Source of the DNA: Haliotis cracherodii
Lineage: Eukaryota
Assembly: GCF_022045235.1 (NCBI RefSeq)
Contig: NW_027266308.1
Span: 35,526,001-35,590,000 of the forward strand
Length of the DNA stretch: 64,000 nt
Direction: 5' to 3'
Below the pieces are notes generated by a model. That model was given only the letters and a program-made list of their open reading frames with translations, ran no database searches and was not told where the DNA came from. Positions within the stretch are counted from its first letter, which is position 1; each line of letters opens with the position of its first letter. Both the position numbers and the translations under genes were made by a program. Shown piece after piece: positions 1,881-62,453 of the stretch.

Positions 1881-2695
1881 ATGACAAACTTACCTCCCCA
1901 TCTGCTTCAACCCCTTAGCATCGACACCAACATCACCTACGACCTGGATATGTCCAAGTTCCCAGGTCTGGACGACCCTCAACATATGTACCAGCCTGCT
2001 CTGTTGATAGCCACTGACTGGAGCGACTACGTCAACCACGACACGCAGTGTGTCACACGTGACGCAGATATAAATCGTGTTCCAACTATTCTTGACGATC
2101 ATGGTTATCTTCAAGGTATGTTTAGATTGTGATGCGCCCTCTTTGCTTTGCTTGTATACCTTTTGTTAAATGGCTGTATATCGAAGTTAATCGAAGTAGG
2201 ATGTTGGTAAACGAAGGATAATTAATCTTTTCTTTTTGTATTTTTCGACACAAGTAAATAATACAAGACTTCACATGTATTAATATCATGATTTTATCTT
2301 CAGATTCCAACCAGAATTTGTTCTCCGACCTTGACCCCAGTAGTGCTTTGGATAGCAACACGTTCCAGTTCATATTGGATGACGTCGTTGAGGAACTGTC
2401 ATTTTCATATGACAATACATTCTCTCAAAATACGCGTGTGAACACAGATCTTTCACCTAGACGAGATGTGGGAAATTGTGATTTAGATTGCTATCTTGAC
2501 ACAGTATATGGGATCTCTGCCGATGGGTTACCAGCTGTGGCGTCACGTGTTAGAGGACAGAAAAGACTCCGATCTGCTGTTGAAGATGCTGATACCAGAA
2601 AGAAATCAAAGTTGACGGACGATTCATCAGTTCTTCCCTCCAATGTGCCTGTGTGTTCAACATATGGACATTGTGATTTATCCAGACTGTCGTGA
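1881..2695 (+). CDS. G1: uncharacterised 'LDMSKFPGLDDP' family protein, subfamily A, 208 aa; exons 1881-2115 and 2304-2695
   Basis: ATG at 1881 (cacaATG). Donor CAAG|GTATGT after 2115; acceptor ttttatcttcag|AT before 2304. The phase-1 join G|AT restores the frame of ORF 2288..2695. Same structure in 6 paralogues. Confidence 0.85.
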
Positions 2696-5600
2696 TCACA
2701 TGTTTGAATTAATCAATCACCATGCTTTAATGTAAACTCGCAAAGAGTCAGTGTGATCAGAGGTTCCTAAGAAACAAATCTAGATTGACCGCATAGGAAA
2801 CAAACGTACAACTAGTGCTAGACGTGAATACTACAGTTATACAACTTCCTTATGTTATCTTTACCTTGTTGTTGTCGTTTTGTTGTTTACTGAAATATAT
2901 GAATATGACAGAATATATTTAGTTATGTCTTGTTTACCATGCATCCTGTCTGGTTAAAACCCCTCCTTTCCAATCTACGTGCACTTGCGAGCCATGTTTC
3001 ATCTGGCTTGTTATATAAGCAATACAGCAACATCAGGTTAAAAAGACAGATGACGAAAGAAAAAGTTCAAGTGAAATGTCTTTTAAAATAATCTTTCTTA
3101 AGGAACATTTATTTGTTGAATATAAAATTTCTAAATTTATGTCAATATAAAACGTCAACGCCAGAGAATGGTCTCGATTTTCTGCCAACACAGATTCGTT
3201 TTGCAAATTGCAAACTAGTGATGAAAACCATATGAAAGAACCACTGAAAACCAGTGATGACACCAGCCACTCGTTGAGAAGTGTAAGCATGTCCTGCTCC
3301 ACCGGTACCACCCACCACTCACACACGTTGCAAGTCAGAGATTGGTTGGTTCCCAACGCCGCTCCCTTGAGTTATACTAATATTTACGCGTTGTATGCAG
3401 ATGAACTTACAGTTCAGATACAGTACTGGAAATATCTCTAATGACATCTGTGAATGAATGGAGATGAATCCTATTTGGAACATTAATATGTAATTTCACA
3501 GCAATAGGTCATCACGCAATGCAAGTGACAATGGGTTAGGAGGCGTAGTCTCTCTTGCAGAAACCAGAGCATGTATGTAATGAAACATCTACCCCCTTAT
3601 CACCCGTCCTAACTCTAGCAGTCTGTATTATGTCCGTTCTTAGCTGGGTTCCTTAATACTCTATGGTTCCCTAATAGAATGGTTGTTATTTAACCTTATA
3701 CATGGTTATATTTCAGGAACGGAATGTTAGTCTTAAGGAAGATATTAGATCAATGGTTATTCGATCAATTGATTGACTGATACACTAAATACACATTTTT
3801 AATGTCATGAAAAACATGCTTCATGGACCTCTGTACAGTTAAGCACCGCTGATGGCTGAAATGGATAGGTGACCGTGTTCCGCACCTTGATTCCTGAGAA
3901 TGTCTCGGACTTTGTGCCCCATACTGAAATGGGGTGTCTCCTAGGGACAGCGACGGTGTTCGAAATACGTCTCTCTTCACTCAGCAGTGAATGGGTAGCC
4001 AGTGGAATGAGAGGGCAATGTGACTTTTGACCTTCTAGCACCACACACAGACAGCAGCTTAGATTGTAAACTCTCCAGGGAGCTGAGAATGAAAATCGAG
4101 TGTTTATGAAGCACCTTAAATACATTATCATACTAGGTGTTCGCGATGAGTTGAGTGTACACCTGTGTCAACTATCAAAAACACATGCAAAGGCCAGTCA
4201 AATGTTCCCCTGAAAGAACACGGGAACATTATGGTACAAGTCAAAGGACATTGCAGCGGGCATCATCTTTACCCCTGATGCTACAAATTTGGAAATGCCA
4301 TCCACATGCCTACCATGAAACGTATTGAAAGCTTTACTAAGGCCTTGAATGTTTTAGCCTTGATCAAACTTAGGATAAACAGTGGAAGGGGATGCCTATT
4401 TCAGCAATATTGGACGATTTTAGATCATCGATATACCTGAAATTAAACCCCTGGGCATATTACCTTGTTTTCACTTTGCCAATCCTATTCATATGCAGAA
4501 AGAAACAGATCAGCAAGAAGAGGCGCATAATTGGTGCCCGTGATGATGCTTGCTCTAGTCTAAATGTCTTACCCTCAAAATGTACATATATGTTAATGAG
4601 GAAGTCCACCATGTTACGTATTGTTTTCTCATTAAACTCCGGCTTGCATTTGCTTTAATTTTCTTACAAATTGCCCGAAACTGTATCTGTGGTTACCACG
4701 TTTTGTCACAAAAGCCCCATGGATCACCGAATGAAGTGTTTCCTGAAGTTTGTAATGCGGGATAGTGGTACAAAGTTGAAAAATCAAACGTTAGACAAAA
4801 CTTGGTTTCTTTCTGAGATTGTAAAACGCAAGCAAATCCTTTGATTTTTGAGAATCCACGTGCTATTAATTCCACTTGTCTCAAATACTTTCTGTAAATA
4901 TAAAGAGAGTCAAGGCTTTCGTGGTACTTTTGCTGGACCCAGCAATATATCTCTCTTTTTACAGATTTTGAATCCAGTAAAAAGATGAATGAACATGTGT
5001 TCATGTATAAGAGTGAAGACAATGGTTGATAGTACTGTTGCATGGTTTTGGCAGACTTCTTCCTCAGTTACGAAACTGGCCTTATACTAAGTGCTTCGGT
5101 CAAACAATTGATGTAGTGATGCTTGCATATACTGGTTATATTATTTGAGGCTTTGTGATTGGGAACAGCTACAAACTTTGCATGTAGACTTTGGATGACG
5201 GCTGGCTGGGACAAAATGGGTTCCAGATATTTTTATGTCACACTTTCCCCGAAGGTTTTCACTCTCATTACAGTGTGGGCTAAAACGCATTGCCCTTACA
5301 ACATGTCTTATTGTTTAAGTGCAATGTGCTTGGTGCTTAATTAACTATCGTTAACTATTGTTAATTAATCGTAACGCCGTGTATGTTTGTTCTCAGGGGC
5401 AGCTTTATCGTACGAGAACCAATGTGTGGATAGTAATCGTTTAATGATCCTCCTAATCCTCATAGATATTGTTCAATCCCTTAATCCATCTCAAATGTCA
5501 GTCGAACTAGAAAATCTTGGATTATATCCAACGCTTCACAGATTAAATGCTTTGTCATTCTAATCCATTCAGGATCGTGAGAAATAAGTGCAGTAATCGA

Positions 5601-6367
5601 TTATGATCCCTCGCGCTGGAGAAACACAACCAAAAAAATAATTGGATATGTCAACTCTCAACTTAACTCATTTATTTCTCGAAAACCCACCCACGCTTGT
5701 ACATGAAATGCTAATTAATTTGACTAATTGTTATGCACATGATTAATACATATCGAGAGGCCTTTTAGATCTCTTAAACTGTTAGTGGTGAGAAAATTCT
5801 TAAAATGGAAACAGATTTGGAAACTTATGATATAATATATTAAGAAATCAGTAAAGCGATGAAAGTAATGAAACTCCTCTCCTCCAGTAATTGAATTGGA
5901 ATGTAAACATTAGCGGTCTTTCCTGGGAAACGCTTAGTGCCAAAACCTGCAAGGCAATTTTACAGCTGCGTAGTAATGTTTTATATAAAGCCTAATATAT
6001 TTTTTAATTTGCATATATGTTGAACAGAATTTTATCTTCGATAATGTTTTTAAACTATGATTATACTACTTCTAGTAGTTTGTCTCTCATAACTCCAATA
6101 GGAGTGGCTCATTTTATTTTATTTTATGTTATTTTTATAGCATTTTATATGTAAATTAAGGCGAGACATAAATAAACTATCTGTCTGTCTGGGAATGTTC
6201 AGCCATCGACCGGTTTCACCGGGTACCCTGTGACATTGATTTTGAGAGTAATAAATATTATTTTAAAAGAAAGGTTGATTCTTTAGGAACAAGCAAATAC
6301 GACCCCTTAGAGCTTCAATCAACAGCTGATTTCTAATTTTTAAGGAATTGAAGTCTGTGTATATTTT

Positions 6368-60929: not shown

Positions 60930-61106
60930 GGGGGCACGGGTGGCCCACTCGTCTAAGGCGCCGTGATTCGCTGTGCAGAGTTGCGTCCCTTGGGCACGCC
61001 AGAAATCTATGATTGTGGGTTCGCATCCCGGTTCCCCCCGATTATGTTTCTAGGTTTGTCAGCACCATACTCGTCCTCGTGGGTTTCACCAAACTCACTC
61101 ACTCAC
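60930..61106 (+). mobile_element. SINE family 3 copy, internally deleted, 12-bp TSD
   Basis: TSD TCAGACAGTGAA at 60918-60929 and 61107-61118; lacks about 100 bp present in the 20084 copy. Confidence 0.85.
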
Positions 61107-61638
61107 TCAGACAGTGAATGCCCTTGGTCCACTAACAGACATCCATTTTCGAAACGAGCTGTACCAAGTTTTTTAAATGTATGGAAACTATCAATATGGG
61201 CACCTCTTTTAAGGCCAGTGTTTTAAAATGTTTACTTTCCGGCACCTTTCTCGTTAGAACACGCATAACAACTATGAGAAAAACACATATTTTTTAAGAA
61301 ATCTGGTTTATTTAAAAAAACAATAAATCAAATCAACAAATGTAAATATGTAACAATATGTATGGCACCATAAGTCCTCGTATTATATAAATATAAAAAT
61401 AACATCTCTAAAAAATCCCTTTTGGGTATTGCACAAGAAGCCACATGGCTTCATCTATCTGAATGCTTCATTCATCCTTGTCCGCATGAAATACAACACT
61501 GGGTGTTCGCATTTCACATCACTATTTCATAGTGATTCATAAACACATGCTCATGATATACTGATAGTCGGTACAGCATAAGGGACTCAGCATTTATCTT
61601 ATGATAATAGAATTGGTTTGTCACTTGTGATTGAAAGT

Positions 61639-62453
61639 CTATGACTCTCTGCCAATTCCACCATTCTTGGATTCGTGACACAAATTTACCACCAAATAAG
61701 GTAACGCTTGCGTGAATGACTCCATCATCTTTGATCTTTTTTCAACATCCGGGTAACAGGCGTCATCGGAGAGACGTCGCTTTTGACCTCTACCGCAAGT
61801 TCTAGCAGAGAGTAATTCTTCCATGACCGGGGAAGAGGTTAATCTAATGTTGGGGGTTGTATGGTCTGTTTGTTGAGAATCACTTGTTGACAGGGAACTT
61901 TGACTGTCAGTATCCAAGTCAATTAATCCAAATATGTCACTTGGTATCACTGAATCTGCAATGACGTCATCGAGGAGTGTCTGCATGGTAATGTCGTCGA
62001 CAGCGAAACCTTGGTCTGTCAGCAAGGCATCAGTTGATTCTGTAAGAAAAAAGAGCAGTTCATAAGTAATTTTGTTCACTATAGGATCATTTTCAAAATT
62101 ATATGCATAAGCACATGAAAAATGAATCATGTAGAAAACGTAAAATTTTTTTTTCATTATCCGTTACTTTTACGTTCAGATTCTGGTGACAACGTATACA
62201 TACCTATAAGAGAGTATAAATCGCTTTCTAAGACACCGTCCGATTCATGGGAACTTGAAGCACTGTTTGCGTCATGTGTGACAAGCTGAGCGTCATGGTA
62301 GACGTAGTCGCTCCAGTCAGTGGCTATCAACAGAGCAGGCTGGTACATATGTTGAGGGTCATCCAGACCTGGGAACTTGGACATATCCAGATCGTAGGTG
62401 ATGTTGGTGTCGATACTTAGAGTTTGGAGGAGATGAGTAGGTACGTCCATCAT
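61639..62453 (-). CDS. G7: same family, subfamily A, 216 aa; exons 62453-62204 and 62039-61639
   Basis: MMDVPTHLLQTLSIDTNITYDLDMSKFPGLDDP... Donor ATAG|GTATGT; acceptor ttttcttacag|AA; 164-nt phase-1 intron; in frame with ORF 61639..62157. AATAAA at 61312-61307. Confidence 0.85.

What the first reader, a model, noticed from the sequence alone, without database searches (positions are those of the whole stretch)
2304..62039. Shared modular architecture in the divergent exon 2: acidic amphipathic helix plus bipartite NLS
Seen: each exon 2 starts with an acidic/hydrophobic segment: G1 LDSNTFQFILDDVVEEL, G4 IDDQTFQTLLDDVIAD, G5 IDDQTFLSLLDDVVED, G7 VDDITMQTLLDDVIAD, G3 GNTAAYHSIIEDVIHG, G6 LDTKEYEILVDDISQEL. 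Each also has a late two-cluster basic motif: RGQKRLR..RKKSK, RGQKRRR..KKKSKK, RGQKRRR..KKSK, RGQKRRL..KRSK, KRKR..KRQC, KRKW..KRRC. These islands persist while the linkers differ in length and sequence. Established: PhixxPhiPhi motifs in acidic context are typical of activation domains that bind KIX/TAZ/Mediator, and two basic clusters about 10-12 residues apart fit the importin-alpha bipartite NLS. Inference: largely disordered nuclear co-regulators lacking an obvious DNA-binding domain, recruited through the conserved N-terminal peptide.
Basis: partly seen in the sequence, partly recalled or inferred. Interest (0 to 1): 0.7.

Follow-up and report, generated by a model that had tools for sequence, protein, structure and literature searches.

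The report
Unnamed mollusc nuclear co-regulator family
Seven spliced genes in this window belong to an unnamed protein family found in snails, limpets and bivalves, with 26 copies in this genome; the proteins carry a conserved docking-type peptide, acidic helices and a nuclear import signal, and are likely short-lived transcriptional co-activators whose partner is still unknown.

Summary
All quoted motifs lie in exon 2 of two-exon paralogues. The window holds 7 of 26 copies, and three introns are joined in RNA-like contigs.

The NLS is well supported: strict bipartite pattern in 20 of 26 copies (shuffles at most 0.4%), clusters 75% identical against 36% for the spacer, and kept in limpets and bivalves.

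A better conserved helix ends exon 1, and a published activation-domain rule calls the region across the junction in 18 of 26 copies.

There is no Pfam, PDB or fold match and no paper in my searches. Localisation, activation and partner are untested. Best reading: a new family of peptide-docked, DNA-binding-domain-less, short-lived nuclear co-activators (0.45). Main rival: nuclear inhibitor or decoy (0.3).

The parts
1881..2115 (+). G1 coding exon 1 (conserved peptide 1911-2009; degenerate helix 1 2088-2115)
2304..2695 (+). G1 exon 2 (helix 2 2348-2398; bipartite basic motif 2552-2611; ends RLS)
12841..13075 (+). G2 coding exon 1 (peptide 12871-12969); G2 is a 98% copy of G1
13264..13655 (+). 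G2 exon 2 (basic motif 13512-13571; ends RLS)
27786..28080 (-). G3 coding exon 1 (peptide 28053-27955; helix 1 27813-27786)
   Evidence: intron joined in 3 of 4 runs
27196..27644 (-). G3 exon 2 (helix 2 27612-27565; basic motif 27354-27301; ends RVI)
   Evidence: protein identical to P0064
34275..34524 (-). G4 coding exon 1 (peptide 34494-34396; helix 1 34302-34275)
   Evidence: intron joined in 2 of 4 runs
33706..34133 (-). G4 exon 2 (helix 2 34089-34042; basic motif 33855-33790; ends RQS)
40832..41081 (-). G5 coding exon 1 (peptide 41051-40953; helix 1 40859-40832)
   Evidence: intron joined in 3 of 4 runs
40073..40491 (-). G5 exon 2 (helix 2 40447-40400; basic motif 40222-40160; ends RQS)
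   Evidence: protein identical to P0002
49850..50162 (-). G6 coding exon 1 (peptide 50135-50037; helix 1 49877-49850)
49077..49633 (-). G6 exon 2 (helix 2 49604-49554; basic motif 49199-49152; no C-terminal R)
   Evidence: protein identical to P0016
62204..62453 (-). G7 coding exon 1 (peptide 62423-62325; helix 1 62231-62204)
61639..62039 (-). G7 exon 2 (helix 2 62001-61954; basic motif 61791-61729; ends RES)
   Evidence: orthologue P0001
1750..1830 (+). G1 proximal promoter: two CCAAT boxes (ATTGG at -126 and -95 from the ATG) and a TATA-like element at -59; all seven genes have a CCAAT box between -73 and -126

Best explanation
These spliced two-exon genes encode members of an unnamed, mollusc-wide family of small proteins that likely act as short-lived nuclear co-activators without a DNA-binding domain of their own. 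Shown: gene structure and splicing; a 33-residue N-terminal peptide under strong constraint; two acidic hydrophobic segments either side of the intron; a two-cluster basic motif of fixed spacing; and a C-terminal arginine. Inferred steps: (1) importin alpha would carry the protein in through the bipartite motif; (2) the peptide, which has no fold of its own, would dock in extended form on one conserved nuclear partner, probably a DNA-bound factor; (3) the two acidic helices would then recruit general co-activators; (4) the R-x-x end would limit lifetime through a CRL4 C-degron pathway. Paralogues would share the partner but differ in tail and promoter. Copies with a weak acidic region or no NLS would act as damped or competing forms.
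For: NLS: strict pattern in 20 of 26 copies, shuffles at most 0.4%; clusters 75% identity and dN/dS 0.12-0.17, spacer 36%; spacer 10-13 residues in 23 of 26 copies and 11-15 in 9 of 10 named non-abalone proteins; typical spacing 10-12 per PMC10807245 (passages); importin alpha is encoded in G000. Peptide: Y invariant in 63 of 63 aligned segments, F 62, P 61, D 61, G 59; extended, pLDDT about 80 but pTM 0.32 alone; in the three pairs without silent-site homogenisation it is 68-89% identical against 28-40% for the exon-2 linker; repeated three times in P0018 and twice in P0024, as a modular docking motif would be. Acidic module: two predicted helices; hydrophobic and acidic columns kept in 17-24 of 25 lineage representatives; strict rule of PMC10550315 (passages) met in 18 of 26 copies, looser rule in 23 of 26, mostly across the splice junction; strict rule met in 0.3-30% of whole-protein shuffles of six window genes. 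C-terminus: R at -3 in 20 of 26, R at -3 to -5 in 24 of 26, shuffles 3-9% and 12-23%; R at -3 in 4 of 10 named non-abalone proteins; these are TRPC4AP degron positions, and -ES is a DCAF12 degron, per PMC10567573 and PMC7458402 (passages).
Against: No partner, localisation or activity was shown. The activation rule was built on human transcription factors, with precision 0.2-0.7 by its authors' estimates. Its looser form fires on 49-90% of shuffles of G1, G4, G5 and G7, so it says little beyond composition. G3, L015 and L016 fail both forms, as do 3 of 10 named non-abalone proteins and 3 of 4 unnamed ones. L012, L018 and L019 lack the bipartite motif. All four scallop proteins have R at -2, and Mytilus and one Solemya protein have no terminal R, so the degron is not universal. 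Part of the peptide's identity within one clade is likely due to gene conversion.
Confidence: 0.45

Rival explanations
1. Nuclear stoichiometric inhibitors or decoys. The peptide and helices would wrap one enzyme or transcription complex and block it, as Cip/Kip proteins do for cyclin-CDK, or would compete for a co-activator as CITED2 does. The acidic helices are then binding or export elements, not activation domains.
For: The same anatomy fits: conditionally folded N-terminal peptide, disordered rest, late bipartite NLS, fast turnover (the Cip/Kip anatomy is recalled). Members that keep peptide and NLS but fail the activation rule exist (G3, L015, L016, P0018, P0024). CITED2 is an acidic competitor without a DNA-binding domain (PMC10550315 passage).
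Against: No Pfam CDI or CITED match in 45 members or 12 exon products; no PDB sequence match to the peptide profile at E 10. Two spaced acidic aromatic/leucine helices with a long acidic tract are more typical of activators (recalled), and they are kept in limpets, mussel and scallops.
Confidence: 0.3
2. Nuclear degradation adaptors. The peptide would hold a target while the exposed C-terminal arginine degron brings in a cullin ligase, so that target and adaptor are destroyed together.
For: The two termini and the NLS are the most constrained parts, joined by a long free linker. L012 and L018 lost the NLS but kept the peptide and the R-x-S end. A DUF3689 gene is present in G000 (its identity with TRPC4AP is recalled).
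Against: It does not explain the two conserved acidic helices. The R position shifts in scallops and is absent in Mytilus. No target is known.
Confidence: 0.1
3. The peptide is a beta-catenin groove ligand, so the family would modulate nuclear Wnt output.
For: By eye, the D-T-x-I-x-Y-x-L part resembles the three D-Q-P-[IT]-N-[YF]-S-[LV] repeats of this genome's APC-like protein (that such repeats bind beta-catenin is recalled).
Against: The family profile does not rank those repeats among its top six windows in that protein, and its best scores there are within the shuffled range. The most invariant residues (L-D, F-P-G, Q-P-x-L) lie outside the resemblance. TCF-type sites are not enriched in the promoters (7 of 26, background 26%).
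Confidence: 0.05
4. Fast-evolving secreted, gamete or immune proteins, in which the basic and acidic patches are incidental.
For: Tandem expansion with divergent exon 2 is common in such molluscan families (titles in the listing).
Against: No signal-type hydrophobic stretch. Overall dN/dS 0.24-0.54 in the 7 of 8 pairs that could be computed. NLS spacing is kept from abalone to bivalves.
Confidence: 0.04

Closest known systems
OCA-B / OCA-T (POU2AF1-3) co-activators (recalled)
   Same: Small disordered nuclear proteins; one short conserved N-terminal peptide docks on a partner; separate activation region; no DNA-binding domain; linked paralogues.
   Different: No sequence match (Pfam; PDB). Their peptide is basic and contacts DNA, whereas this one is acidic and hydrophobic. 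The late bipartite NLS and R-x-x end are features of this family.
CITED1/2/4
   Same: Acidic activation domain in a protein without a DNA-binding domain (PMC10550315 passage); the rule anchored on CITED2 is met by 18 of 26 copies.
   Different: In CITED the acidic domain is the conserved C-terminal part (recalled). Here the conserved part is an N-terminal peptide, and the acidic helices are central and more variable. No CITED Pfam match.
SERTAD / TRIP-Br / Taranis, Vestigial-like, Mastermind, CRTC (recalled)
   Same: Peptide-recruited co-regulators with a short docking module and a disordered acidic region.
   Different: None of their Pfam models matched. The docking module here is predicted extended, not a long helix.
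Cip/Kip CDK inhibitors (p21, p27, p57, Dacapo; recalled)
   Same: About 200 residues; N-terminal segment that folds on binding; C-terminal bipartite NLS; CRL4-type turnover; few exons.
   Different: No CDI match, no PDB match, and no cyclin-binding RxL-F motif in the conserved peptide.
Spiralian-specific motif genes (lophotrochin, trochin; PMC7441323)
   Same: Lineage-restricted proteins defined by a strongly conserved motif with no match outside the lineage.
   Different: The peptide is not visible in the 37 oyster proteins of their Supplementary Data 1 (read by eye; 8 of 37 cells cut at 400 characters). All named hits here are molluscs.

Membership tests
Classical bipartite NLS cargo | Two basic clusters about 10-12 residues apart, K at the major-site P2 | tested here: met
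   Strict 20 of 26, relaxed 23 of 26; spacer 10-13; definition per PMC10807245 passages. G3's second cluster is sub-optimal.
Classical bipartite NLS cargo | Importin-alpha binding and nuclear import | not testable with these tools
   Needs localisation or binding assays; importin alpha is encoded in G000.
Acidic activation domain | 39-residue tile with charge -9 or less and balanced W/F/Y/L | tested here: met
   18 of 26 copies; 6 of 7 window genes (not G3); 4 of 10 named non-abalone proteins (rule).
Acidic activation domain | Amphipathic helix in a disordered region | tested here: met
   AlphaFold2 helices 72-91 and 101-117 in G5; hydrophobic moment 0.36-0.54, 69th-98th percentile within each protein. 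Prediction only.
Acidic activation domain | Transactivation and binding to KIX, TAZ or Mediator | not tested
   No assay possible; no complex with these partners was predicted.
R-3 C-degron (CRL4-TRPC4AP) | Arginine at -3, or at -4/-5 | tested here: met
   20 of 26 and 24 of 26 copies; 4 of 10 named non-abalone proteins; scallops have R at -2; definition.
R-3 C-degron (CRL4-TRPC4AP) | Ligase-dependent instability | not testable with these tools
   Needs a stability reporter.
Cip/Kip CDK inhibitors | CDI domain | tested here: not met
   No match at E up to 5 in 12 exon products or E up to 1 in 45 members.
CITED, OCA-B, SERTAD, Vestigial, Mastermind, CRTC, IER | The family's Pfam domain | tested here: not met
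   No family matched more than 1 of 45 members and none of these is among the 15 listed; that each has a Pfam model is recalled.
Beta-catenin groove ligands (APC 15-residue repeat type) | Sequence likeness to the repeat | tested here: not met
   The family profile does not pick the three repeats in this genome's APC-like protein.
Sequence-specific transcription factor | A DNA-binding domain | tested here: not met
   No Pfam domain; no Foldseek match; the basic residues are confined to two short clusters.

The most novel reading that the evidence does not exclude
Molluscs have their own tier of DNA-binding-domain-less, degron-timed co-activators, built on a docking peptide unknown elsewhere. 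Abalone expanded it into a 26-gene array in which gene conversion keeps the docking peptide the same while promoters and effector tails diverge. One conserved transcription factor would then be read out through a paralogue code, most plausibly in early embryonic fate decisions.
Probability: 0.15. Interest if true: 0.8.

Novelty: new variant of a known kind. Interest (0 to 1): 0.5.

Why it matters
Peptide-docked co-activators without a DNA-binding domain are invisible to domain-based catalogues of regulators, and several were recognised only late. A family shared by gastropods and bivalves, with a 33-residue motif that matches nothing in Pfam or the PDB, gives a direct handle: one pull-down with the peptide would name its partner and possibly a mollusc-specific layer of gene control. 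The array also shows exon-local homogenisation of a binding module beside diverging tails.

Tried and rejected
1. Pfam: 12 exon products and 45 family members gave only scattered sub-threshold hits.
2. PDB by sequence: the peptide profile found 0 at E 10. The full profile found 1 at E 0.68, a reductase, rejected as chance.
3. Folds: Foldseek 0 matches; VIA-align 0 of 48161 chains at Z 2. Both models are extended, so these blanks say little.
4. ESM Atlas: no usable hit for G7 exon 1 or P0028.
5. Complex prediction of G5 residues 1-120 with the beta-catenin armadillo region (P0100): no verdict, runs 0.36, 0.01, 0.07, alignments not used. It is not counted for or against.
6. Run index: no holder is on record as RNA. 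Run metadata are coded, so stage and tissue of expression are unknown.
7. Earlier scan notes: 4 look-ups, nothing. Rfam: 0 in the window.
8. Literature: two accession searches (9 unrelated numeric matches; 0) and five topic searches, seen as listings, showed no paper on this family. Most subscription papers and bioRxiv supplements are not searchable, so a mention in a supplementary table is not excluded.
9. Resemblances from memory that I could not support: APC repeat (tested); Myc box 0, LARP4 RACK1-binding motif, E2F/RB motif, LDB1 LID and PxIxIT docking (no PDB sequence hit; not otherwise tested).
10. A profile search of the whole own genome was not available. Copy number rests on two single-protein searches (26 and 25 matches at the same places) and a local profile scan of about 40 kb of flanks that found no extra copy; 26 is a lower bound.
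11. Rows left out: of the 54 profile hits, cross-species counts use 14 non-abalone or unnamed proteins that looked spliced and near full length. The others were abalone proteins, exon-1 read-through fragments or of uncertain model.

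
Full report
1. What is in the window. The window is G000:C45:35526001-35590000 of a 1.18 Gb animal genome. It holds seven two-exon genes, G1 and G2 on the + strand and G3-G7 on the - strand, each with one phase-1 GT-AG intron, encoding 208-289 residues. The models of G3, G5 and G6 are identical to database proteins P0064, P0002 and P0016. 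The sources label P0002 and P0064 'uncharacterized protein' of Haliotis. The G5 intron is joined in contigs of 3 of 4 runs, the G3 intron in 3 of 4 and the G4 intron in 2 of 4. The run that covers the intergenic DNA (X12) shows neither of the latter joins. These runs appear to be of related animals, and their kind is a guess by the tool, so they show splicing of orthologues, not stage or level.

2. The observation. Every motif quoted is present in frame. A search with exon 1 finds 26 copies on C45, 22 at 35.40-35.65 Mb and 4 at 6.72-6.74 Mb; all 26 give an open two-exon model. Exon-2 shuffles of 11 copies gave at most 0.4%, 0.4-26% and at most 0.5%. The copies are related (tree), and the helix pattern was derived from them. 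Among G1, G4, G5 and G7, exon 2 aligns throughout (z 4-79).

3. Where selection acts. Pooled over 8 paralogue pairs, amino-acid identity and dN/dS are: N-terminal peptide 86%, 0.08-0.13; basic clusters 75%, 0.12-0.17; last four residues 60%, 0.23-0.29; helix at the end of exon 1 59%, 0.28; helix at the start of exon 2 45%, 0.39-0.42; NLS spacer 36%, 0.40-0.59; exon-2 linker 40%, 0.54-0.57. One pair is saturated and region labels are regex-based, so these are rough. Silent differences in the peptide are far fewer than elsewhere in one clade: G4/G5 0 of 35 against 22 of 134, G7/L005 2 of 33 against 33 of 61, G7/L012 2 of 27 against 26 of 39, L003/L006 2 of 33 against 28 of 54. G1/L003 and G1/L004 do not show this. 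In G3/G6, L014/L017 and L015/L016 silent change is even, yet the peptide is still 68-89% identical. I infer local gene conversion on top of purifying selection.

4. The family is mollusc-wide. A profile of 21 exon-1 products found 54 proteins at E 0.001 or better among 1.84 billion representatives. Named ones are from Lottia, Patella, Pinctada, Pecten, Mizuhopecten, Argopecten, Ylistrum, Solemya (two neighbouring gene numbers), Mytilus and four Haliotis species. I looked up names for 30 hits; 19 carried none. No named hit is outside Mollusca, but the second search scored only 7994 candidates and I could not iterate the full profile search. The motif is P-L-x-[VI]-D-T-x-[IV]-x-Y-x-L-D-M-S-x-F-P-G-L-x-D-P-x4-[QE]-P-x-L. 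P0018 has three matches and P0024 two. Many short hits end the first helix with L-I-G and run into apparent intron, as the window genes do, so the intron position appears old. The basic motif, with a spacer of 11-15, is in 9 of 10 named non-abalone proteins and 4 of 4 unnamed full-length ones, 20-51 residues from the end.

5. Predicted shape. For G5 with a 45-row alignment, AlphaFold2 gives an extended N-terminal 40 residues at pLDDT 76-87, helices 72-91 (across the splice junction) and 101-117, and pLDDT 39-55 from residue 121 on; pTM is 0.23. The peptide alone is extended, pLDDT 80, pTM 0.32. High local confidence without a compact fold fits a segment that orders on a partner; this is inference. 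There is no match in Pfam, PDB sequences, Foldseek, VIA-align or the Atlas.

6. The acidic module. Columns of helix 1 (D/E, D/E, L, aromatic, x, L, I, D/E) and helix 2 (hydrophobic, x, x, two hydrophobic, two acidic, two hydrophobic) are kept by class in 15-24 of 25 lineage representatives. The strict rule of PMC10550315 (passages read) is met in 18 of 26 copies, mostly at residues about 60-120 across the junction. It is met in 4 of 10 named non-abalone proteins; the looser rule in 23 of 26 and 7 of 10. G3, L015 and L016 fail both. Whole-protein shuffles meet the strict rule in 0.3-30% and the looser one in 2-90%. So the activation-domain reading is plausible and unproven, and it concerns both helices, not exon 2 alone.

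7. R stands at -3 in 20 of 26 copies and at -3 to -5 in 24 of 26. Lottia, Patella, Pinctada and one Solemya protein end the same way; four scallop proteins have R at -2; Mytilus and the other Solemya protein have none. PMC7458402 and PMC10567573 (passages read) describe R at -3, also -4 and -5, as the CRL4-TRPC4AP degron and -ES as a DCAF12 degron. A DUF3689 gene is in G000 (the link to TRPC4AP is recalled). The motif is short and could equally be a binding tail.

8. Promoters. TGATTGG or its reverse lies within 250 bases of the start in 18 of 26 copies, against 4.4% of windows in this region; several copies have two boxes 31-42 bases apart. G3 and G6 also carry CTGTCAATCA at about -100 (background 0.8%) (the NF-Y and PBX/MEIS labels are recalled). 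With the short genes and TATA-like elements, this would suit rapid induction, but no expression data could be tied to a stage.

9. Mechanism and rivals. Best: import through importin alpha, docking of the peptide on one conserved nuclear partner, co-activator recruitment by two acidic helices, and turnover through the C-terminus (0.45). Only the anatomy and its conservation are shown. Rivals: inhibitor or decoy (0.3), degradation adaptor (0.1), beta-catenin ligand (0.05; likeness test negative), non-nuclear fast-evolving protein (0.04). That most members are nuclear I put near 0.9.

10. Known or new. It works like the peptide-docked co-regulators (OCA-B, CITED, SERTAD, Vestigial, Mastermind; recalled) or the Cip/Kip inhibitors, but fails the domain test for each. 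Seven paper searches (listings only) found no description. The motif is not visible in the 37 proteins of PMC7441323 Supplementary Data 1 (8 cells cut). The NLS and acidic helices are ordinary parts. The interest lies in the unnamed family, its docking peptide and the array. Novelty: new variant of a known kind; interest 0.5.

Noticed in passing
window 1-3000 and 10297-14019; L001, L002: G1, G2 and two upstream copies are a recent tandem duplication with a unit of about 10.3-11.0 kb and 96.5-98% coding identity.
   Followed up: partly
window 34339-34859 and 40896-41408: G4 and G5 are 93% identical over promoter and 5' exon 1, with the first 120 coding bases identical, but about 77% over intron and exon 2: likely a conversion tract that includes the promoter.
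   Followed up: partly
window 28170-28179 (G3) and 50254-50263 (G6), about 100 bases upstream of each ATG: Both carry CTGTCAATCA about 25 bases upstream of a CCAAT box, although their promoters do not otherwise align; a PBX/MEIS plus NF-Y arrangement by recall.
   Followed up: partly
L019:442-2064 (-), L020:5250-7550 (-), L021:2062-4117 (-): Three copies lack the bipartite motif. L019 also has a degenerate peptide (F-P-G replaced). L012 (in L020) has a 96%-identical orthologue, P0009, so the NLS-less form is maintained. These three have long introns (0.9-1.6 kb) and no CCAAT box.
   Followed up: partly
L009, L010, L011, L013 (G000:C45:6.72-6.74 Mb): A second four-copy cluster about 29 Mb away on the same contig, each with a CCAAT box directly followed by CACGTG.
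   Followed up: no
P0018 and P0024 (unnamed ENA proteins): Family members with three and two tandem peptides, an NLS and no acidic region passing the activation rule: possible multivalent competitors.
   Followed up: partly
window 7699-8573: Broken reverse-transcriptase-like reading frames of a LINE-type element between G1 and G2 (seen in the frames; label recalled).
   Followed up: no
window 28484-29275: A high-copy repeat upstream of G3, with summed contig depth above 50,000 in run X12 and also present in RNA-like runs.
   Followed up: no
window 6367-6493: A 126-base near-perfect inverted repeat with an internal 65-base duplication, MITE-like.
   Followed up: no
L027:637-9381 (-): A 2914-residue single reading frame of an APC-like protein with three D-Q-P-[IT]-N-[YF]-S repeats, fetched as a control.
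   Followed up: partly
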